Below are positions 1 to 63,963 of a stretch of 64,000 nt of DNA, piece after piece. The first letter of the stretch is position 1, and every line of letters begins with the position of its first letter. The DNA comes from a virus. The notes under the pieces were generated by a model. That model had not been told where the DNA came from. It ran no database searches and saw nothing but the letters and a program-made list of their open reading frames with translations. The stretch lies in UHGV virus genome UHGV-0178594; one strand, given 5' to 3'. The position numbers and the translations under genes are program-made.

Positions 1-600
1 GATATTGGCGCTGCCATCAAATGACACTCCGCCGATTGTGCGTGCCGTCTGAAGTTTCGTTGCGGTTGCAGCATTACCTGTTGTGTTCTGGTTACCGGCA
101 ATGTTCACACCCGGCAGGTTGATATTGGCGCTGCCATCAAATGACACTCCGCCGATTGTGCGTGCCGTCTGAAGTTTCGTTGCGGTTGCAGCATTGCCGG
201 TAGTGCTCTGATTACCTGTTTTATTCACGCCTGGCAGGTCGATATTGGCGCTGCCATCAAATGACACTCCGCCGATTGTGCGTGCCGTCTGAAGTTTCGT
301 TGCGGTTGCAGCATTACCTGTTGTGTTCTGGTTACCGGCAATGTTCACACCCGGCAGGTTGATATTGGCGCTGCCATCAAATGACACTCCGCCGATTGTG
401 CGTGCCGTCTGAAGTTTCGTTGCGGTTGCAGCATTGCCGGTAGTGCTCTGATTACCTGTTTTATTCACGCCTGGCAGGTCGATATTGGCGCTGCCATCAA
501 ATGACACCCCGCCGATTGTGCGTGCCGTCTTGAGCTTTGTCGCAGTATCTGCGTTTCCCGTCAAATTACCTGTAATGCCACCACTAACTGTTACCCCATT
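1..600. repeat. Tandem coding repeats inside tail-fibre gene: 1-240 identical to 241-480, each made of two diverged 120-bp units; diverged copies continue to ~960
   Basis: Direct comparison of sequence lines 1-240 and 241-480 shows identity; unit starts GATATTGGCGCTGCCATCAAATGACAC. Confidence 0.9.
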
Positions 601-11368: not shown

Positions 11369-11660
11369 GGGCAATTTCTACACCTCTCTGTAGGTGTAGG
11401 ATTTGCCCTTAAAGATGGGAGATTGAGGGCAATTCTTACATCATTAGTTAGTTGGTTGGATCTTTAACGGCTAACATTATTTGTAATTTATTGATTAATA
11501 AGGAATGTGTAAAAATCACCCTCAGATGGCATCGTATGCTATAGCTATTTTTATCGCACTACTGTTGAATGTTTTATGGTTGTAACGCGTTGATTTTGTT
11601 GTGATGTGTAAAAAATGCCATCATTGACGTAAACAGCAGGTGTAGATATTGCCCTCAAGT
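11368..11660. repeat. Downstream iteron cluster (copy-control/incompatibility-like), both orientations
   Basis: AGGGCAATTTCTACACCT (11368), AGGTGTAGGATTTGCCCTT (11392), GAGGGCAATTCTTACATCA (11425), AGGTGTAGATATTGCCCTCA (11639). Confidence 0.5.
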
Positions 11661-11699
11661 TTGCCCCTTCCCCACCTTCTCGCACTTTAATACTGCATT

Positions 11700-12437
11700 T
11701 CAAAACTTGATCACGTTGCTGGCGGCGCTTTTAAGTGCGCTTGTTGCTAAACCAGCAGCTCCATTGACTAATGCGGACAGGCCGGAACCGGCAGATGTGT
11801 ATCGCTGGAACGTGATCGGATAGGACAAGAATTCGGACACCTGATCACGTGAGCGGCTGATCTCTCCTATCTGAGTCGGAAATACACGCATTTCCTCTTC
11901 CAGCTCTTTCCCGCCTTCCTGTGTAACGCGGTATAGCCTGATATTCATGAGATAATCTGGCGGCAGGTTTAGCGTACCATCGCTATTGGTTACACGAGCG
12001 CGGCGCTCTTTGAACCAATTCATTATTTTGCCGTCTTCTGTGTCTCTGACCGTCATTGTTACCGGCCCGGCGGTTACGTGCGTTGGCTTATTGAACTCGA
12101 CGCTACCAATGATTTTGCTTTCTGTTTCAATATTCCCGCTACTGTAAGTGATGTCCTTAACGAACATATCAAAGCCGCTTAATCCGTCTACGTCTACCGT
12201 CCACTGCCAGCCCTGGGCATAGCGGATACGCATAGCCGTAGCAACTACGTTCTTTCCGTAAGCGATGTCATTGCCGTAGCTCCCACTAACGCCACTGCCA
12301 GACACCGCTCTATCCAGAATGTCGCTGATAAGGTTGCTGGTGAACGATTTCGCGCTAAACGATACCGCACTGGATAGCGTTTGCGTTGCAGCACTAAAAA
12401 TACTCACGTAGCCCTCCGTGTTAAAAAATGGTGGCAC
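11700..12437 (-). CDS. Virion morphogenesis protein (unassigned)
   Basis: 245-aa ORF in a tightly packed minus-strand structural operon. Confidence 0.3.
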   Translation of the reverse strand: MPPFFNTEGYVSIFSAATQTLSSAVSFSAKSFTSNLISDILDRAVSGSGVSGSYGNDIAYGKNVVATAMRIRYAQGWQWTVDVDGLSGFDMFVKDITYSSGNIETESKIIGSVEFNKPTHVTAGPVTMTVRDTEDGKIMNWFKERRARVTNSDGTLNLPPDYLMNIRLYRVTQEGGKELEEEMRVFPTQIGEISRSRDQVSEFLSYPITFQRYTSAGSGLSALVNGAAGLATSALKSAASNVIKF

Positions 12438-18869: not shown

Positions 18870-18945
18870 TTAGAAAAATAATTTTCTTTAACAAAATCGT
18901 CATGGTGTGTTTTAATCTTAATTTTCTAACACATAACATTAGAAC
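18870..18945. promoter_or_regulatory. Two operator-like palindromes (TTAGAAAAATAATTTTCTTTA at 18870; TTCTAACACATAACATTAGAAC at 18924) upstream of the 18948 gene
   Basis: Members of the recurring GTGTTAGAAAAT-type motif family. Confidence 0.4.
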
Positions 18946-27688: not shown

Positions 27689-27720
27689 GTGTTAGAAAAT
27701 AAAACTCAATTATCTAACAC
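27689..27720. promoter_or_regulatory. Operator-like palindrome GTGTTAGAAAAT..TATCTAACAC immediately upstream of rdgC-dmt
   Basis: Member of the recurring motif family; 14 bp from the rdgC start. Confidence 0.45.
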
Positions 27721-38399: not shown

Positions 38400-38640
38400 A
38401 GCCTCCTTTGACTAAGTTAAGGAGCTACCGCGTGAGGTTCCAATCTCAATGGCGGTAGCACTGACTGGGTTGGAACTACCGGCGTCAAAGGGAACCGGCC
38501 TGCCTTTCGGCAGCCCAGCCAGCACTACCATTGATCTCTGAGCTAAACGCTAAGTATGGCTGTGCGATGGCATGACACAAAAAAAGACGCGTTCGGCGTC
38601 TGTGTCGCCTTTGACATTATCCGGGGTTCCAATCCCGGCA
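38400..38640 (-). ncRNA. Structured leader / candidate c4-like antisense regulatory RNA region
   Basis: Hairpins GCTACCGC..GCGGTAGC and CTGCCtttcGGCAG; GGTTCCAATC occurs twice (38427, 38619) with its complement TTGGAAC at 38466. Confidence 0.25.
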
Positions 38641-38706
38641 CCCGTTTTTCTAAGGTGCCGTAGAAATATACCCCACGATAATGCCAGGGCGCAACTGTGT
38701 GTTTTC

Positions 38707-39195: not shown

Positions 39196-39218
39196 TGTTA
39201 GAAAATTAATTTATCAAT
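39196..39218. promoter_or_regulatory. Operator-like element TGTTAGAAAATTAATTTATCAAT overlapping the ref stop codon
   Basis: Nearly identical to the element overlapping the dre stop codon at 58095. Confidence 0.4.
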
Positions 39219-39825: not shown

Positions 39826-39857
39826 GTGTTAGAAAATCAAAATTGATTTTCTAACAC
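39826..39857. promoter_or_regulatory. Near-perfect 32-bp palindrome GTGTTAGAAAATCAAAATTGATTTTCTAACAC directly upstream of ref
   Basis: 15-bp arms are exact reverse complements; 3 bp from the ref start. Confidence 0.55.
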
Positions 39858-44744: not shown

Positions 44745-44775
44745 GTGTTAGAATATTGATTTTAATTTTCTAACA
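44745..44775. promoter_or_regulatory. Operator-like palindrome GTGTTAGAATATTGATTTTAATTTTCTAACA upstream of the 44818 gene
   Basis: Member of the recurring motif family. Confidence 0.45.
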
Positions 44776-54067: not shown

Positions 54068-54083
54068 CTGTATGAATAAACAG
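54068..54083. promoter_or_regulatory. LexA box CTGTATGAATAAACAG upstream of humD
   Basis: Exact CTGT-N8-ACAG SOS-box architecture 21 bp upstream of the humD ATG. Confidence 0.6.
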
Positions 54084-54103
54084 TATTATTGAGGTAAAAC
54101 GCT

Positions 54104-58094: not shown

Positions 58095-58117
58095 TGTTAG
58101 AAAATTAATTTATGAAT
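58095..58117. promoter_or_regulatory. Operator-like element TGTTAGAAAATTAATTTATGAAT overlapping the dre stop codon
   Basis: 19 of 23 positions identical, in one run, to the element at 39196. Confidence 0.4.
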
Positions 58118-59138
58118 CCATCAGGCGACTATTTGCACCAACGGATGCCCCGCTACGGCGCAAATATCGCATAAGTGTTTCGGGCTTTTTCCATGTGCCT
58201 TCCTGCATGATCTCGACCATTGACACCTGTTTCTCAGCCATATCAATTGCCGCACCAACACGCGCACTATGGCCTGTCCACGTCCGGTATCTTCCTTTGT
58301 TCGGCGTGGCATCTCGTTTGTTCAGCAACCCCCAGGCATCGCTGAATATTTTCTCCATTGCAGGTGCAGTAAGGGGAGTTGTCGTGATTCTGGCCTTATT
58401 ACTGCGGTGTATTGGCGGGAATAGCACCGCGTCCGGATGTTGACGAAGTCCGGACACCTCCAGCCAGTCGTTCAGTACGGCGGTAGTGCAACGAGAAAGC
58501 ACCTTATCAAGTCCGGCGGCGGTCGTGATGGTCTTCGTGTGCGAAATATGCAGCGTTACAGTGTCACCTGTTTGGTCCAGATCTCCGACGCGGATGCGCG
58601 AGATTTCTGACATACGCATCAGGGTATTGTATGCCACGAAGAGAAACGCCCGATTGCGCAGGTCCACCAGCCGCTCGGAACGGGACAGCAATACGTCGAG
58701 CAATTTCAGATCATCCCACCGCAACGGTATAGCCTGGCCTGTTCGCTCGCCTTTTTCCGTTGCCGCTTCGCGCCGGATGCGCCGCATGGCCAGAGACACA
58801 CTTTTATCGTCCGACAGCGGCGGGAGGCCACATTGCGAAAGCAGCATGTTAAGCATGGCATAGTGCTTATCAATGGTGGTCGAAGCCAGATCGGCCTCAT
58901 GCAACTGGAGAAGATACTCGCGGGCCATTTCCGACGTAATCGGGAACCAGGGGCGCTGGCGCGAGTTACACCACCGCGCCCAGGAATGAAACACCAGACG
59001 GAGATCACGAAGTGTATTTGGGGCATAAGCTCCCTGGTCGTTCATGAACTGCATAAAGTTTTTTGCAGCTTCCTGGTATTCGGTGCCAATATCGCGCAGA
59101 AAACCACCAGAACCGCCGGAGATAACTAGTTCACCCAT
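58110..59138 (-). CDS. dre: Cre-family tyrosine recombinase (Dre-type)
   Basis: Collinear with remembered Cre (..WFP..DVR.YLL.LQ..GLA..TI..H...LNML.., ..RNLAF..AYNTL.R..EI.RIRV.D.., ..WSGHSARVGAA.DMA..GVS..EIMQ.G.W..); adjacent exact rox site. Confidence 0.85.
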   Translation of the reverse strand: MGELVISGGSGGFLRDIGTEYQEAAKNFMQFMNDQGAYAPNTLRDLRLVFHSWARWCNSRQRPWFPITSEMAREYLLQLHEADLASTTIDKHYAMLNMLLSQCGLPPLSDDKSVSLAMRRIRREAATEKGERTGQAIPLRWDDLKLLDVLLSRSERLVDLRNRAFLFVAYNTLMRMSEISRIRVGDLDQTGDTVTLHISHTKTITTAAGLDKVLSRCTTAVLNDWLEVSGLRQHPDAVLFPPIHRSNKARITTTPLTAPAMEKIFSDAWGLLNKRDATPNKGRYRTWTGHSARVGAAIDMAEKQVSMVEIMQEGTWKKPETLMRYLRRSGASVGANSRLMDS

Positions 59139-59290: not shown

Positions 59291-59322
59291 TAACTTTAAA
59301 TAATGCCAATTATTTAAAGTTA
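59291..59322. other. rox: rox recombination site TAACTTTAAATAATGCCAATTATTTAAAGTTA (14-bp inverted arms, 4-bp spacer)
   Basis: Perfect inverted arms read directly; sequence matches the rox site as I remember it from the Dre/rox system. Confidence 0.85.
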
Positions 59323-59403: not shown

Positions 59404-59506
59404 ACATTTTCTAATAGGAACAATCAAAAAAAAGCGGTTTTATCCTTTACTCACCTTGTTATTCAGCATAAATTTGTCACAGGACTTTTATGTTAGAAAA
59501 CTAAAT
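59404..59506. promoter_or_regulatory. Two operator-like sites (ACATTTTCTAATAGG at 59404; ATGTTAGAAAACTAAAT at 59490) upstream of the c1-position gene
   Basis: Half-site variants of the recurring motif. Confidence 0.4.
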
Positions 59507-59518
59507 CGAGTAGGAATA

Positions 59519-60556
59519 ATGAGTAAGAAGTCGATCGAGAATGAGTACAAACGGTTCCTGCAAACCGCTGAACGGTGGAAAGAGCTGGTGGTCGCAAACT
59601 CTGTTTTCCATGATACCAGTTATGTTGGCGAGGAATTTCGCCATGTTGCATTAACACATGATCCGGCTGTATTAGAAGAAGCTGAAAAATGCATAGCCGA
59701 ATGGAAAGCCTTTGTTGATCTGTGTCGCAAGGATGATGACAAAGCCTCAAACATTGTTGAGTCGGTTTATTTACCGATCCCATTCATTGTTGAGGATACT
59801 AATCAGAGTACGCACATCGTTATGCAAAGCGCAACCACAACGAGAACATTTACGCGCGAAGACCTGCTGAAAAAATACGATAAAACTATAAAGAAAAGCA
59901 TGAAAAACAGGATATTTTCACAGGTTGTCGGTGCGCTTGAAGAAGAACGCAGATTCTTCGCCGCTGAACGTGAGGGCGAGGTATACCGCGCAAGAAAAGA
60001 AGGTTATACCGATGTGGTGATTACCACCAATATTGAGGGCAACAATGGACTTTCACGCTTCAGAGTGGGTACGCACGGTGCGCTGATCTTTGCAAAAAAA
60101 GCAAACACAGAGATTCCCGTTGTTAACAACGTTGGTGAGCGCCGCACCCTTACCATTTACACTGGCATTAAACCGCTTCCGTGCGGACTTCTCGGCGAAT
60201 TTGACCTTTATCGGGTTCGTGATCTGGAAAAGCAGCAGCCAAGCTACGTCGTGAAGTCATATATCCTGAGAAACATTGATATCCGCAATCAGAGTTTAAA
60301 AAACAAATCAGATAAAATGCTGGCCGAAGCCGATCCAGCCATACACCAGATCGTAAGCCGGAAAATTCAAGAGGCTAAAGATGCAATGGCAAGGCTGGAT
60401 AAAATGGACCTGGAACTACTGGAAGTTATGATTGCCTCCGGCGATGACCTGACAGGCATCCGCCTTACTGAAGCCAGGAAAAAATACGGTAAAAGCGTTG
60501 AAGAACGCTATGGGTACACATTCACACAAACGATGTACGCGGCAAAACTCTGGTAA
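59519..60556 (+). CDS. Immunity repressor candidate by position (c1 locus between rox and pacB); family not recognised
   Basis: 345 aa from ATG 59519 (track lists a TTG-initiated 59456 start); convergent with pacB as c1 is in P1; longer than P1 C1, so identity unproven. Confidence 0.35.
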   Translation: MSKKSIENEYKRFLQTAERWKELVVANSVFHDTSYVGEEFRHVALTHDPAVLEEAEKCIAEWKAFVDLCRKDDDKASNIVESVYLPIPFIVEDTNQSTHIVMQSATTTRTFTREDLLKKYDKTIKKSMKNRIFSQVVGALEEERRFFAAEREGEVYRARKEGYTDVVITTNIEGNNGLSRFRVGTHGALIFAKKANTEIPVVNNVGERRTLTIYTGIKPLPCGLLGEFDLYRVRDLEKQQPSYVVKSYILRNIDIRNQSLKNKSDKMLAEADPAIHQIVSRKIQEAKDAMARLDKMDLELLEVMIASGDDLTGIRLTEARKKYGKSVEERYGYTFTQTMYAAKLW

Positions 60557-60593
60557 TCGCAAGCCACCCACAAGCCCCGAATCGCCGGGGCTT

Positions 60594-62102
60594 TTAAATG
60601 TCAATATCAGGAATATCCACTTCTGCCAACACCTGATCGCGGAATGTTGCGAGTTCTGCGCCAATGTCTTCATTAGCAGGCACGTAATCCACCAGCATAG
60701 TGAAGCAGTAGGTATCCCATCTGTCCGGTGACTTGATGTTTAACTTCTGCCGCATGTGCTCCTTGCGCATCATCGCTACCTTCCCTTCTTCGTTAAGCAT
60801 ATACGGGATTTTTGATGCCTGATCTGCGGTTTTGGGGTCACTATCGATACGCATACGCCCGGATTTAATGGCATCCCCTGCCATAATATTGGCGTAAGCA
60901 CGCTGATTGACAAAGCGTTCTCTGTCTCTTAGCGCAAACATAGGCTTACCCCAACGGATGCGAACGGGATTAGCACCACGGCGGACAAGCTGCGCACACG
61001 TATCTGAACCAAAGCCATCAGCATCCACAGCAATGGTGATGTTCGGGTATTTATCAGGAGTGCATTCGTTATAGATAAAGTCGGCAAAAGCCAACGGGTC
61101 CATAGTGCCTGGCATCTCCAGTATCTTAAAGTTCACAACGCGTCGTTTCTCACGATAACCGGATACTTTGCATATATTGAGCACCGATTTATCGCGACCA
61201 TTACCGACGTCAGCGGTCGCTACCCAGCCCCAATCTTTCTCCAGCAACACTTTACGCCGTGCGGCGCGGTCGCACTCATCACGACCAAGCAAATACCCGT
61301 TAATTGCACGCGGGAACTGGCCCAGCACCTTAACCATGTACTCCAGCGAATCCCTGCCGCCGTACTCCAGCAATTTCTCACGAATAAAGCTCGGTTCAAC
61401 GAATGGTGATTCTTCAGAGTTAAGGACTATTGCCGTCCAGACACCTTCCGGATTGCCTTCTGCCTTTGCCCTTGAATGGTGAGATTCATAAAAGTAACCG
61501 CTTGGACGCGTAGGCTGGGAAAGCATGAGCATACGGTTATCTTTCTGCGTTAACGCCCCCGTCATGACGTTAATCGCCTTATCGGATATGCCCGATGCTT
61601 CATCAAGAATTAGCAGTAAATGCTCCGCGTGCTCCCCCGCCAGTGCCTCTTCGTTACCGAGTCGATAACCTTTACAGAGCACTTCCCATATCCCTTTACG
61701 GGAACGCTCATAAAACATGGTGTCAGACAGGACAAAATAGGTCTGTAACCAGCCGTGGCGCTTAACAGCATTCGCCCAAAACTGTTTCACGTATTTGAAT
61801 ACGCCTGTTTTTACCTGGCCTATTTTGTTCGCAACAATAATGACGCGGGCGTCGGGGAACAGGATCATAAAAATTAGTAGCAACATCGCGGTAAGGGACG
61901 ACTTACCCGTTCCGTGTCCGGACGTAACGGTCGTCCTGCTTCCCGTCTCCTGCACTGACTGAATGATCTGCTGCTGCTGGTGGGAGGGGAACATCCCAAA
62001 AATATCGACAACCGCCTGGGTAAAGTTGTATCGATACCTGATAACCATATCGCGCCAACGTGGATCACTGGTGACGCACTTAATCTTACGACCACCAGCC
62101 AT
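60594..62102 (-). CDS. Terminase large subunit (PacB-like)
   Basis: P-loop ..TSGHGTGKSS.. near the N-terminus, 502 aa, immediately downstream of the small-subunit gene. Confidence 0.6.
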   Translation of the reverse strand: MAGGRKIKCVTSDPRWRDMVIRYRYNFTQAVVDIFGMFPSHQQQQIIQSVQETGSRTTVTSGHGTGKSSLTAMLLLIFMILFPDARVIIVANKIGQVKTGVFKYVKQFWANAVKRHGWLQTYFVLSDTMFYERSRKGIWEVLCKGYRLGNEEALAGEHAEHLLLILDEASGISDKAINVMTGALTQKDNRMLMLSQPTRPSGYFYESHHSRAKAEGNPEGVWTAIVLNSEESPFVEPSFIREKLLEYGGRDSLEYMVKVLGQFPRAINGYLLGRDECDRAARRKVLLEKDWGWVATADVGNGRDKSVLNICKVSGYREKRRVVNFKILEMPGTMDPLAFADFIYNECTPDKYPNITIAVDADGFGSDTCAQLVRRGANPVRIRWGKPMFALRDRERFVNQRAYANIMAGDAIKSGRMRIDSDPKTADQASKIPYMLNEEGKVAMMRKEHMRQKLNIKSPDRWDTYCFTMLVDYVPANEDIGAELATFRDQVLAEVDIPDIDI

Positions 62103-63466
62103 TAGTCATCCTCCGGCTGGTCTATCGCAATCTCGTCATCTACAGCATCAAAACCGGTATCCCCCGCGTCATAATCACCGTAGATATCAGCCGTGGCGTA
62201 AGGGTCTATATTCAGGTCTTCATCATTGGCCTCAAATTCACCGGCTTTACGTTCTCCGTTCCGGTCGTAATCCCCCATCCCAAGCCTATCAACGATTTTC
62301 GCTACTTCAGCCCGGCGTTGTGCAAGCCATTGTGGGAGTCCAGCTTGTTGCTCGGCAAACTGCTTCGCCTCTTTATCCAGTTGCTCATCATCAACATCGT
62401 TAACGTCAGAAACCGGAGGCTCCAGAAGTGAGATCGCTTTTGCCGCTCGTGCCGCCAGGATAGCCGGGACACTGACGCCCTGCCGCTCGATATATTCAGC
62501 AACACCTATATCATCCAGCTCCTCGCGCTCACGCATACGTATAGCGGCGGCGATAACCCTGGCGGCGCGTGCGTCAGCGCCAATGCGATACTCAATCTCC
62601 TTGCCACGCTGCTCGGCTTGTAGGCGGGCAATCGCCAGTTTTTCTCTGGCCTCAGCCTCCCTGAATGCCTGCTGACGCGCGCCCTGCGCAAGTTTTTCAT
62701 CCCCCTGGCGTAGCTTCTGCTCGTTCTGATAGATGGCTGCCAGCCTGGTGATAAAGTCATTCATGTAGTAGGCCGCATCGCTGATCAGTCCGAGAAGACG
62801 CTGCCCTGGGTGCATCCCCTCTGGCTGTGTATCACCGAGGGCGTCAATCTCTTCCTGTAGTCGCTCCGCTTCCTGGTCAACGATAGCCTGATACTGAATT
62901 GCTCGTTCCTGCGCCATCTGAATCGCAAGTCGTAAATGTTCAGTCGCGCCGTTCTTCATCATCTCACGGGCGACGTTGGTGGCAGGCAAAGTGGTGCTTT
63001 GAGCTGATGAATCAGGGATCATTTGCAATGATCCCTTGTTTCGTTGGGCTTTATCGCTGCTTTTAGGGATCATTTCTCCCATTTCATCACAAAATGATCC
63101 CTTCACATCCTTGTGTATCTTGTTGTTATTACTTGGCTTTTCTTTGTGATCCGCATTTTGTTTTTGCGGCATGGCGCGGAACCGTCCACCAGCCAAAGAT
63201 TTGTCAGTTTTTGTAAATTCTGTGCTTTTATTAGCCTTTTTTTGCTCTTTTTTTGAGCCGGTGGCGCTGCTTTTTGCGCGCTGTTTTGTACTTTTCCCGG
63301 TAGCCTTAGCTTTCGCCTTAACCTCATTTTTTTTCATATTGAGATGCTTTCTGGCGGTGTTAAAGCTGAGGTCATGCTGCTCGCAATATTCTTTTATGGT
63401 GATCCCGGTTTCTTCTCTTAACTCCAGGAACTTAGCTCGATGCGCTTCCCAGTTAATTAACGTCAT
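62102..63466 (-). CDS. Terminase small subunit / pac-recognition protein (PacA-like)
   Basis: N-terminal HTH-like ..ITIKEYCEQHDLSFNTARKHL.., basic linker, GATC-rich pac-like cluster inside the 5' part of the gene. Confidence 0.5.
   Translation of the reverse strand: MTLINWEAHRAKFLELREETGITIKEYCEQHDLSFNTARKHLNMKKNEVKAKAKATGKSTKQRAKSSATGSKKEQKKANKSTEFTKTDKSLAGGRFRAMPQKQNADHKEKPSNNNKIHKDVKGSFCDEMGEMIPKSSDKAQRNKGSLQMIPDSSAQSTTLPATNVAREMMKNGATEHLRLAIQMAQERAIQYQAIVDQEAERLQEEIDALGDTQPEGMHPGQRLLGLISDAAYYMNDFITRLAAIYQNEQKLRQGDEKLAQGARQQAFREAEAREKLAIARLQAEQRGKEIEYRIGADARAARVIAAAIRMREREELDDIGVAEYIERQGVSVPAILAARAAKAISLLEPPVSDVNDVDDEQLDKEAKQFAEQQAGLPQWLAQRRAEVAKIVDRLGMGDYDRNGERKAGEFEANDEDLNIDPYATADIYGDYDAGDTGFDAVDDEIAIDQPEDD
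63014..63102. other. pac-like cluster: four GGGATCATT / AATGATCCC elements with GATC sites at 63017, 63030, 63068, 63096
   Basis: Read directly; resembles the Dam-sensitive hexamer organisation of the P1 pac site. Confidence 0.4.
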
Positions 63467-63855
63467 AGGGAAGCCTCACGTTTTTTCACAGCGGCGTTCC
63501 ATAGCTGGTTAGTCATCGCCACCAACTGACGCTGCTCCTTTCGTAATTGAGCTTCTATCTTTCGGTTGGTGTTTTTCACCAACAGCCGACCGAATTCAGG
63601 AGTGCGCCCGCGCACCTTGAACTGGTATCCATTCAGGCCATGTAACCAATATTTCCGGGGGTATACGCGGTCGTCTATTTCGCAAATGGCACGACTGGAA
63701 CGAACAAAAAAACGTATGATGTTATTTACGTTTACGCGCGACACATGAAGGTGAGGATATTGTGCTTTTGCACGGCTGGTGATTTCGGTGACCGTCAGAT
63801 AGCAGTTAGCCCTGATCATGATATCCGCTATTTCGGCGCTACTGATTTGCTCCAT
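63463..63855 (-). CDS. Hypothetical protein upstream of pacA (position of P1 lpa)
   Basis: 130-aa ORF; positional inference only. Confidence 0.25.
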   Translation of the reverse strand: MEQISSAEIADIMIRANCYLTVTEITSRAKAQYPHLHVSRVNVNNIIRFFVRSSRAICEIDDRVYPRKYWLHGLNGYQFKVRGRTPEFGRLLVKNTNRKIEAQLRKEQRQLVAMTNQLWNAAVKKREASL

Positions 63856-63934
63856 TTATCCCCCGGATAGAAAAAGACCGAGGGGATGATAATCAGCTTG
63901 TTAATACTGAGAAGACTGTCAAAAACACGATCTA

Positions 63935-63963
63935 TTAGAAAATTAATATCAATTTGCTAACAC
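63935..63963. promoter_or_regulatory. Operator-like site TTAGAAAATTAATATCAATTTGCTAACAC upstream of the pac operon
   Basis: Member of the recurring motif family. Confidence 0.4.

What the first reader, a model, noticed from the sequence alone, without database searches (positions are those of the whole stretch)
59404..60556. Gene at the c1 position is autoregulation-ready but not recognisably C1
The ORF between rox and the terminase genes is flanked upstream by two operator-like half-sites and converges on pacB exactly as c1 does in P1, yet it is ~345 aa, longer than P1 C1 as I remember it, and I see no P1-type coi ORF in the 200 bp upstream. It may be a different immunity repressor family occupying the same slot.
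Basis: inference. Interest (0 to 1): 0.5.

Follow-up and report, generated by a model that had tools for sequence, protein, structure and literature searches.

The report
D6-type C1 prophage repressor gene
The gene is the known c1 immunity repressor of a phage-D6-like plasmid prophage, a distant, longer relative of phage P1's C1 and not a new repressor family, sitting behind a conserved promoter flanked by two of its own likely binding sites.

Summary
A 345-aa ORF (59519-60556, +) lies between the Dre/rox recombination module and pacB, converges on pacB, is longer than P1 C1 (283 aa), has two operator-like half-sites upstream, and has no coi. The interpretation, a different repressor family, does not hold. 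The protein is 80% identical to phage D6 C1, annotated as the repressor in both D6 records. It also shares PHROG 1678 with P1 C1; pairwise BLASTP gives E=1e-7 and hhalign 96.6% probability over about 230 residues. Relatives carry Pfam PF27008 'Phage_P7_repressor_C1'. It is therefore a D6-type C1: the shared C1 core plus a conserved helical C-terminal module of about 100 aa. The half-sites belong to a family with core TGTTAGAAAAT (7 exact copies against 0.06 expected). Copies are single or 30-bp inverted pairs, all intergenic, including upstream of lpa, ref and c1, which carry C1 operators in P1. The P1 operator consensus is absent. Upstream of c1, two inverted sites 85 bp apart bracket a conserved promoter, and this layout persists in relatives whose C1 is only 43-50% identical. 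No Coi or Lxc homologue was found. Side result: the predicted C1 core resembles the replication terminator protein Tus. The gene is already known and of low to moderate interest.

The parts
59519..60556 (+). c1 gene, D6-type C1 prophage repressor, 345 aa. Residues about 1-240 are the C1 core shared with P1; residues about 233-345 are the D6-type helical C-terminal module.
   Evidence: ORF. 80% aa identity to D6 C1. PHROG 1678. Homology to P1 C1. AF2 models.
59406..59416 (-). Distal operator-like site upstream of c1 (TATTAGAAAAT read on the - strand).
   Evidence: One mismatch to the family core. The core TTTTCTAA is an island of conservation in otherwise diverged DNA.
59446..59474 (+). Putative c1 promoter: -35 TTTACT (59446-59451), 17-bp spacer, -10 TAAATT (59469-59474).
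   Evidence: Both hexamers and the spacing are invariant in five sequences whose C1 proteins diverge to 43% identity. It falls below the consensus threshold of the promoter scan (8 of 12 matches). Assigning it as a promoter is inference.
59491..59501 (+). Proximal operator-like site (TGTTAGAAAAC), about +11 to +21 relative to the inferred transcription start and 17 bp before the ATG.
   Evidence: TTTATGTTAGAAAA is invariant in all five sequences.
60572..60593 (+). Hairpin followed by TTTT between c1 and pacB; probable c1 terminator.
   Evidence: RNAfold gives -14.9 kcal/mol with an 8-bp stem.
59291..59322 (.). rox site for the Dre recombinase.
   Evidence: Perfect 13-4... inverted repeat. Annotated as rox in D6 records.
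58110..59138 (-). dre (Cre-like tyrosine recombinase).
   Evidence: Pfam Phage_integrase. 94% aa identity to D6 Dre.
60594..62102 (-). pacB (large terminase subunit), convergent with c1.
63933..63962 (.). Bivalent (inverted, head-N8-head) operator-like site upstream of lpa.
   Evidence: P1 has the C1 operator Olpa at the equivalent place.
39827..39856 (.). Bivalent operator-like site between ref (-) and the orf88-like gene (+).
   Evidence: P1 has Oref in the ref promoter.
27690..27719 (.). Bivalent operator-like site 15 bp upstream of the hrdC-like gene (-).
44746..44775 (.). Bivalent operator-like site upstream of the pdcB-like gene (+).
18921..18931 (-). Monovalent operator-like site 17 bp upstream of the orf52-like gene.
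39196..39206 (+). Monovalent operator-like site upstream of the immI-like operon (orf86/85, isrK, C4 RNA, icd, ant).
58095..58105 (+). Monovalent operator-like site between the dre stop codon and the orf117-like gene.
38448..38535 (-). C4 antisense RNA of the immI-like antirepressor module, the probable route for inactivating C1.
   Evidence: Rfam RF01695, 77 bits. icd and antirepressor homologues lie downstream.

Best explanation
This is the c1 gene of a D6-like plasmid prophage. It encodes the primary repressor of lytic functions and belongs to the P1/P7 C1 family in its D6-type (long) form. Shown: homology to D6 C1 and P1 C1; P1-like placement next to the recombination site and convergent with pacB; and a dispersed, strongly over-represented site family in promoter regions. 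Inferred: the protein's Tus-like core binds an asymmetric operator of about 17 bp (TGTTAGAAAAT plus an AT-rich tail), which differs from the P1 operator. The sites occur singly or as inverted overlapping pairs, as in P1. Binding would shut off lpa, ref, hrdC, the immI-like operon and other early genes. The repressor would limit its own synthesis by occupying the two inverted sites that bracket its promoter, one about 29 bp upstream of the -35 and one just downstream of the start. The two sites are 85 bp apart, about eight helical turns, so they may act together. No Coi or Lxc is encoded, so relief of repression probably runs through the c4-RNA-controlled antirepressor module. The conserved C-terminal helical module may provide the protein-protein contacts that Lxc or Coi mediate in P1.
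Against: No experiment here links this protein to the motif, to repression or to immunity. NCBI's equivalog model for P1 C1 is missed by a wide margin (24 bits against a cut-off of 500), so function is transferred across about 21% identity. The putative promoter is weak by consensus (8 of 12) and was not picked up by the scan. The operator core does not co-vary with C1 divergence down to 43% identity, so there is no specificity-switch evidence tying the protein to the site. The window covers only part of the element; absence of Lxc and Coi rests on the complete D6 genome as a proxy. The Tus similarity rests on predicted models, with TM-scores of only 0.37-0.43.
Confidence: 0.87

Rival explanations
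1. One reading: an unrelated immunity repressor family has replaced c1 in the same slot.
For: No Pfam hit in the local Pfam copy. About 60 aa longer than P1 C1. The P1 operator consensus is absent from the window. No coi.
Against: Direct and profile homology to P1 C1 across the whole core. Shared PHROG. PF27008 on relatives. In an exhaustive search the family splits into long forms and short P1-like forms that share profile positions about 5-245.
Confidence: 0.02
2. The protein is a C1 homologue, but the TGTTAGAAAAT family is the binding site of some other factor (another phage regulator or a host protein), and the real C1 operators are elsewhere.
For: No binding data. The motif core is unchanged although C1 diverges to 43% identity, which would also fit a more conserved unknown factor.
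Against: The sites lie where P1 has C1 operators: c1, lpa and ref. Their mono/bivalent architecture matches P1 C1 operators. It is the only short motif that stands out in the k-mer counts apart from Chi sites and a tandem repeat. The P1-type consensus has no match within three mismatches.
Confidence: 0.08
3. The Tus-like protein acts mainly as a DNA-bound roadblock or replication-fork barrier, or in plasmid maintenance, rather than as a transcriptional immunity repressor.
For: The predicted core fold resembles Tus. The sites are asymmetric and oriented.
Against: The homologous P1 C1 is an established transcriptional repressor (PMC8546580). The sites sit in promoter regions directly upstream of gene starts. 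There is no sequence-level link to Tus.
Confidence: 0.03

Closest known systems
C1 repressor of Escherichia phage D6 (AAV84948.1 in AY753669; ASR76322.1, D6_1, in MF356679)
   Same: 345 aa, 80% identical over the full length. Same neighbours (dre, rox, pacB, pacA, lpa). Same upstream promoter and operator layout and the same operator core throughout the genome.
   Different: 20% amino-acid divergence, which is typical of the whole element (73-93% nucleotide identity to D6). The distal operator region has diverged apart from its core. The spacing of the two sites is 85 bp here and 84 bp in D6. Seven plasmids in PLSDB carry this allele at 98% identity or more, and about 100 carry the D6 allele.
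C1 repressor of phages P1/P7 (NCBIfam NF041318 phage_rep_C1; Pfam PF27008 Phage_P7_repressor_C1; PHROG 1678)
   Same: Homologous core of about 240 residues. Gene convergent with pacB beside the lox-type site. Many dispersed asymmetric operators, single or as overlapping inverted pairs, including at c1, lpa and ref. A c4-RNA/icd/ant module is present.
   Different: About 21% identity. A different operator sequence: TGTTAGAAAAT-type against ATTGCTCTAATAAATTT, with no P1-type site in 64 kb. Inverted pairs are spaced head-N8-head rather than head-N6-head. A conserved helical C-terminal module of about 100 aa replaces P1's short basic tail. No Coi, ImcA/B or Lxc. The c1 promoter is bracketed by two separated sites instead of being overlapped by a bivalent Oc1ab.
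Tus, the E. coli replication terminus-site binding protein (PDB 1ecr, 4xr0-2)
   Different: No detectable sequence similarity, 9-13% identity in the structural alignments, and modest TM-scores (0.37-0.43). The comparison uses predicted models. The biological role differs (fork arrest against transcriptional repression).

Membership tests
P1/P7 C1 repressor family (PF27008 / PHROG 1678) | Sequence homology to P1 C1 across the core | tested here: met
   BLASTP E=1e-7 over 241 aa. PHROG 1678 matched by both proteins. hhalign 96.6%. PF27008 precomputed on relatives, including a 97%-identical one. PF27008 is not in the local Pfam copy.
P1/P7 C1 repressor family, NCBIfam equivalog NF041318 | Score above the curated equivalog cut-off (500 bits) | tested here: not met
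   24.4 bits, E=1.8e-5, against 607 bits for P1 C1. It is a distant subfamily, not an equivalog of P1 C1.
P1/P7 C1 repressor family | Gene placed beside the lox-type site and recombinase, convergent with pacB | tested here: met
   also in three distant relatives.
P1/P7 C1 repressor family | Many dispersed asymmetric operators, monovalent and bivalent, at early promoters including its own | tested here: met
   13 half-sites at 9 intergenic loci, with enrichment far above shuffles. The sequence differs from the P1 consensus, which is absent. Binding by this protein is inferred.
P1/P7 C1 repressor family | Operator binding, repression of lytic genes, superinfection immunity | not testable with these tools
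   Needs EMSA or footprinting, reporter assays and an immunity assay.
P1 immC/immT circuit | Partner proteins Coi (inactivator, upstream of c1) and Lxc (corepressor) | tested here: not met
   tblastn finds no hit better than E=0.7 in the window or the complete D6 genome. No ORF lies between rox and c1. Very divergent small proteins could escape tblastn.
P1 immI circuit | c4 antisense RNA with icd and an antirepressor | tested here: met
   Rfam C4, 77 bits, at 38448-38535. icd and ant homologues at 38393-37255.
D6-type (long) C1 subfamily | About 345-380 aa with the conserved C-terminal module (...MD.EL..VM..SGDDL....L..AR..YG..IEE.YG.TF...) | tested here: met
   Alignment A2/A3 shows invariant C-terminal residues. 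Long forms match profile positions 2-347 and short P1-like forms only about 5-245.
Tus family (replication terminator protein) | Tus fold | tested here: inconclusive
   Predicted models give Tus as the unique significant match, but TM-scores are 0.37-0.43 and there is no experimental structure.
Tus family (replication terminator protein) | Sequence homology to Tus | tested here: not met
   A profile search of the C1 core against all PDB sequences finds nothing.
Lambda-type CI / HTH-S24 repressors | HTH_3 or Cro/C1 DNA-binding domain and an S24 peptidase domain | tested here: not met
   No such Pfam hit at E of 1 or below. The model shows an alpha/beta core with no match to HTH repressors.

The most novel reading that the evidence does not exclude
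D6-type C1 proteins may be Tus-fold repressors that have internalised the accessory functions of the P1 circuit. Their conserved C-terminal helical module would let two operator-bound protomers pair. That would explain the head-N8-head palindromes and the two inverted sites held about eight helical turns apart around the c1 promoter, with autoregulation by looping. It would also make Lxc and Coi dispensable. More broadly, the unsolved fold of the classic P1 C1 repressor would be a Tus-like clamp on an asymmetric site.
Probability: 0.25. Interest if true: 0.55.

Novelty: already known. Interest (0 to 1): 0.3.

Why it matters
As a gene call it adds little. D6 c1 has been annotated as a phage repressor similar to P1 C1 in both D6 records, and near-identical plasmid copies are already labelled 'phage repressor protein'. 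The follow-up does give a usable picture of immunity control in the widespread D6-like phage-plasmids of Escherichia, Salmonella and Shigella; 140 PLSDB plasmids matched. That picture comprises a candidate operator consensus that differs from P1, a candidate C1 regulon, and a conserved autoregulatory layout. It also shows a circuit without Coi or Lxc. The predicted Tus-like core offers a structural hypothesis for how the C1 family reads asymmetric operators; no solved structure was found.

Tried and rejected
- **P1 operator consensus:** ATTGCTCTAATAAATTT has no match in the window even with 3 mismatches, so P1-type operators were rejected.
- **Local Pfam copy:** no family matched either this protein or P1 C1. 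The family PF27008 appears only in the precomputed annotations.
- **Alternative start:** the TTG at 59456 (366 aa) was rejected. It is not conserved in D6 (CTG there), the region carries the conserved promoter and operator, and D6 annotates 345 aa.
- **P1 accessory proteins:** tblastn with Coi, ImcA, ImcB, Lxc, Cra and C8 found nothing. BLASTP of Lxc or Coi against the C-terminal module also found nothing, so there is no sequence support for a fused Lxc.
- **LexA box near c1:** none found; the only good box in the window is at 54068.
- **Divergent immunity allele:** the idea that c1 is unusually diverged was rejected, because its 79% nucleotide identity to D6 is typical of the whole window.
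- **Repressor/operator co-variation:** not seen; the operator core is unchanged in relatives with 43-50% identical C1.
- **Unavailable resources:** the papers by Sauer & McDermott 2004, Gilcrease & Casjens 2018 and Lobocka 2004 are not in the held library. I therefore cannot say whether the D6 operator motif has already been published. A text search for the motif found only unrelated papers. The afdb50 fold library was not available.

Full report
**1. What is at the coordinates**

The window end is collinear with Escherichia phage D6 at 73-93% nucleotide identity. The local gene order is as follows.
- A Dre-like tyrosine recombinase lies at 58110-59138 (-). It matches Pfam Phage_integrase and is 94% identical to D6 Dre.
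- The 32-bp rox site lies at 59291-59322.
- The ORF in question is on the + strand.
- pacB lies at 60594-62102 (-), pacA at 62102-63466 (-) and lpa at 63463-63855 (-).

The mechanical ORF starts at a TTG at 59456 (366 aa). The ATG at 59519 gives 345 aa and is the better start. An AGGA precedes it. Both D6 records annotate 345 aa. The TTG is CTG in D6, and the DNA between the TTG and the ATG carries conserved promoter and operator elements. A hairpin with a T-run at 60572-60593 (-14.9 kcal/mol) follows the stop codon.

The gene converges on pacB as c1 does in P1, and it is longer than P1 C1, which has 283 aa. Nothing codes between rox and the ATG.

**2. What the protein is**

It is 80% identical, without gaps, to the D6 protein annotated 'c1, phage repressor protein; similar to the C1 repressor of phage P1' (AY753669) and 'prophage repressor' (MF356679). 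Several independent tests show homology to P1 C1.
- BLASTP gives 21% identity over 241 residues with E=1e-7.
- Both proteins hit PHROG 1678 end to end, at E=6e-159 and 3e-140.
- A profile of 12 D6-type sequences aligns to P1 C1 with 96.6% probability over 230 columns.
- NCBI's phage_rep_C1 model matches residues 9-244 at E=1.8e-5. The score is 24 bits against a 500-bit equivalog cut-off, so this is a distant subfamily and not an equivalog.
- Relatives, including one 97% identical, carry the precomputed Pfam family PF27008, named Phage_P7_repressor_C1. My local Pfam copy lacks this family, which explains the empty Pfam scans.

An exhaustive profile search of 1.84 billion representatives finds only 93 clusters. 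Long forms (about 345-380 aa) match the whole profile. Short P1-like forms (about 250-290 aa) match only positions about 5-245. The extra length is thus a C-terminal addition to a shared core. That addition is itself highly conserved, with invariant residues in ...MD.EL..VM..SGDDL...AR..YG..IEE.YG.TF. The suggestion of a different repressor family is refuted.

**3. The half-sites and the operator family**

The P1 operator consensus ATTGCTCTAATAAATTT (PMC8546580) has no match in the 64-kb window, even with three mismatches. K-mer counting instead singles out TGTTAGAAAAT. It has 7 exact and 8 one-mismatch copies, against 0.06 and 1.55 expected from shuffles.

The copies form nine loci, all intergenic and all next to gene starts.
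- Four loci are 30-bp inverted pairs (head-N8-head): 27690-27719 before the hrdC-like gene, 39827-39856 between ref and the orf88-like gene, 44746-44775 before the pdcB-like gene, and 63933-63962 before lpa.
- Three loci are single sites: 18921 before the orf52-like gene, 39196 before the immI-like operon, and 58095 before the orf117-like gene.
- The ninth locus lies upstream of c1 and has two single sites, at 59406-59416 (inverted) and 59491-59501.

Extending the sites gives roughly TGTTAGAAAATTAAwwT, which is asymmetric with an AT-rich tail. P1 has annotated C1 operators at three of the equivalent places: Olpa, Oref and Oc1a-e. It also mixes monovalent sites with overlapping inverted 'bivalent' ones; Oc1ab is head-N6-head and 28 bp long. 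D6 carries the same motif at the homologous positions. This is strong circumstantial evidence that the family is the C1 operator set of D6-type elements. Binding itself is inferred.

**4. The c1 control region**

I aligned the region from the window, from D6 and from three distant relatives: a Raoultella plasmid and two metagenomic contigs whose C1 proteins are 43-50% identical to this one. All keep the recombinase/rox/c1/pacB/pacA/lpa synteny. The alignment leaves only a few invariant blocks.
- The distal TTTTCTAA core.
- CTTTACT (-35 TTTACT at 59446-59451).
- Exactly 17 bp later, TAAATT (-10 at 59469-59474).
- TTTATGTTAGAAAA (the proximal site).
- A Shine-Dalgarno sequence and the start codon.

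The two 11-mers are 85 bp apart, start to start, in four of the five sequences and 84 bp apart in D6. The promoter is weak by consensus and was missed by the scan. Its conservation, however, supports a real Pc1 bracketed by two inverted operators, one upstream of the -35 and one just downstream of the inferred start. That arrangement suits autoregulation. Cooperation between the two sites through looping, at about eight helical turns, is possible but untested.

**5. Accessory factors**

tblastn with P1 Coi, ImcA, ImcB, Lxc, Cra and C8 finds nothing in the window or in the complete D6 genome. The D6 annotation lists none of them either. An immI-like module is present. It has a C4 antisense RNA at 38448-38535 and an isrK-like RNA at 38580-38658, with icd and an antirepressor downstream. 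One of the operator-like sites precedes it. Relief of repression through a c4-controlled antirepressor is therefore the most likely route; this is inference by analogy with P1 (PMC8546580).

**6. Structure**

No solved structure matches the family by sequence. An AlphaFold2 model of the whole protein has mean pLDDT 84. It shows an alpha/beta core (1-232), two long helices (233-270 and 276-307) and three short helices (316-342).

TM-scores are modest (0.37-0.43) and there is no sequence similarity, so I treat this as a well-supported fold prediction and not as proof. It fits what is known. From my own knowledge, Tus clamps an asymmetric site as a monomer; C1 operators are asymmetric. I found no paper in the held library linking C1 and Tus.

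**7. Verdict**

The gene is the already annotated c1 of the D6 lineage. Seven PLSDB plasmids carry this allele at 98% identity or more, some labelled 'phage repressor protein', and about 100 carry the D6 allele. The 'autoregulation-ready' reading is supported and sharpened, and the 'different family' reading is rejected.

Beyond the finding, the work adds a candidate operator consensus and regulon, a conserved promoter-bracketing layout, and a distinction between long and short C1 forms. It also shows the lack of Coi and Lxc and predicts a Tus-like core. Whether the D6 genome paper already reported the operator motif could not be checked, because the paper is not held.

Noticed in passing
[not shown]
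   Followed up: partly
window 38448-38658 (-): A C4 antisense RNA (Rfam RF01695, 77 bits) and an adjacent isrK-like RNA (RF01394, 61 bits) sit upstream of icd and antirepressor homologues (38393-37255). This is a P1 immI-like module, preceded by an operator-like site at 39196.
   Followed up: partly
window, whole (e.g. 2542, 3946, 59584, 60689): Chi sites (GCTGGTGG) are strongly enriched: 43 in 64 kb (13 on + and 30 on -), against about 1 expected per strand from base composition.
   Followed up: no
window 1-530: A tandem repeat of 120 bp (4.4 copies, 90% matches; 240-bp super-period at 99%) in the tail-fibre region. The unit length is a multiple of three, so it probably encodes 40-aa protein repeats.
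   Followed up: no
window 54068-54087: A near-consensus LexA box, TACTGTATGAATAAACAGTA, lies just upstream of the humD (umuD'-like) homologue. No such box occurs near c1.
   Followed up: no
L010 10001-11080 and protein P0001 (403 aa): Gene callers in public data start some c1 homologues too early. In L010 the called ATG lies inside the proximal operator (aTGTTAGAAAA), which gives N-terminally extended proteins of 359-403 aa.
   Followed up: no
D6 genome (L005) 11549-11809 (-), outside the window: D6 orf13 (86 aa) occupies the position next to ulx where P1 has lxc (82 aa), but P1 Lxc shows no tblastn similarity to it. A positional analogue of the corepressor cannot be excluded.
   Followed up: partly
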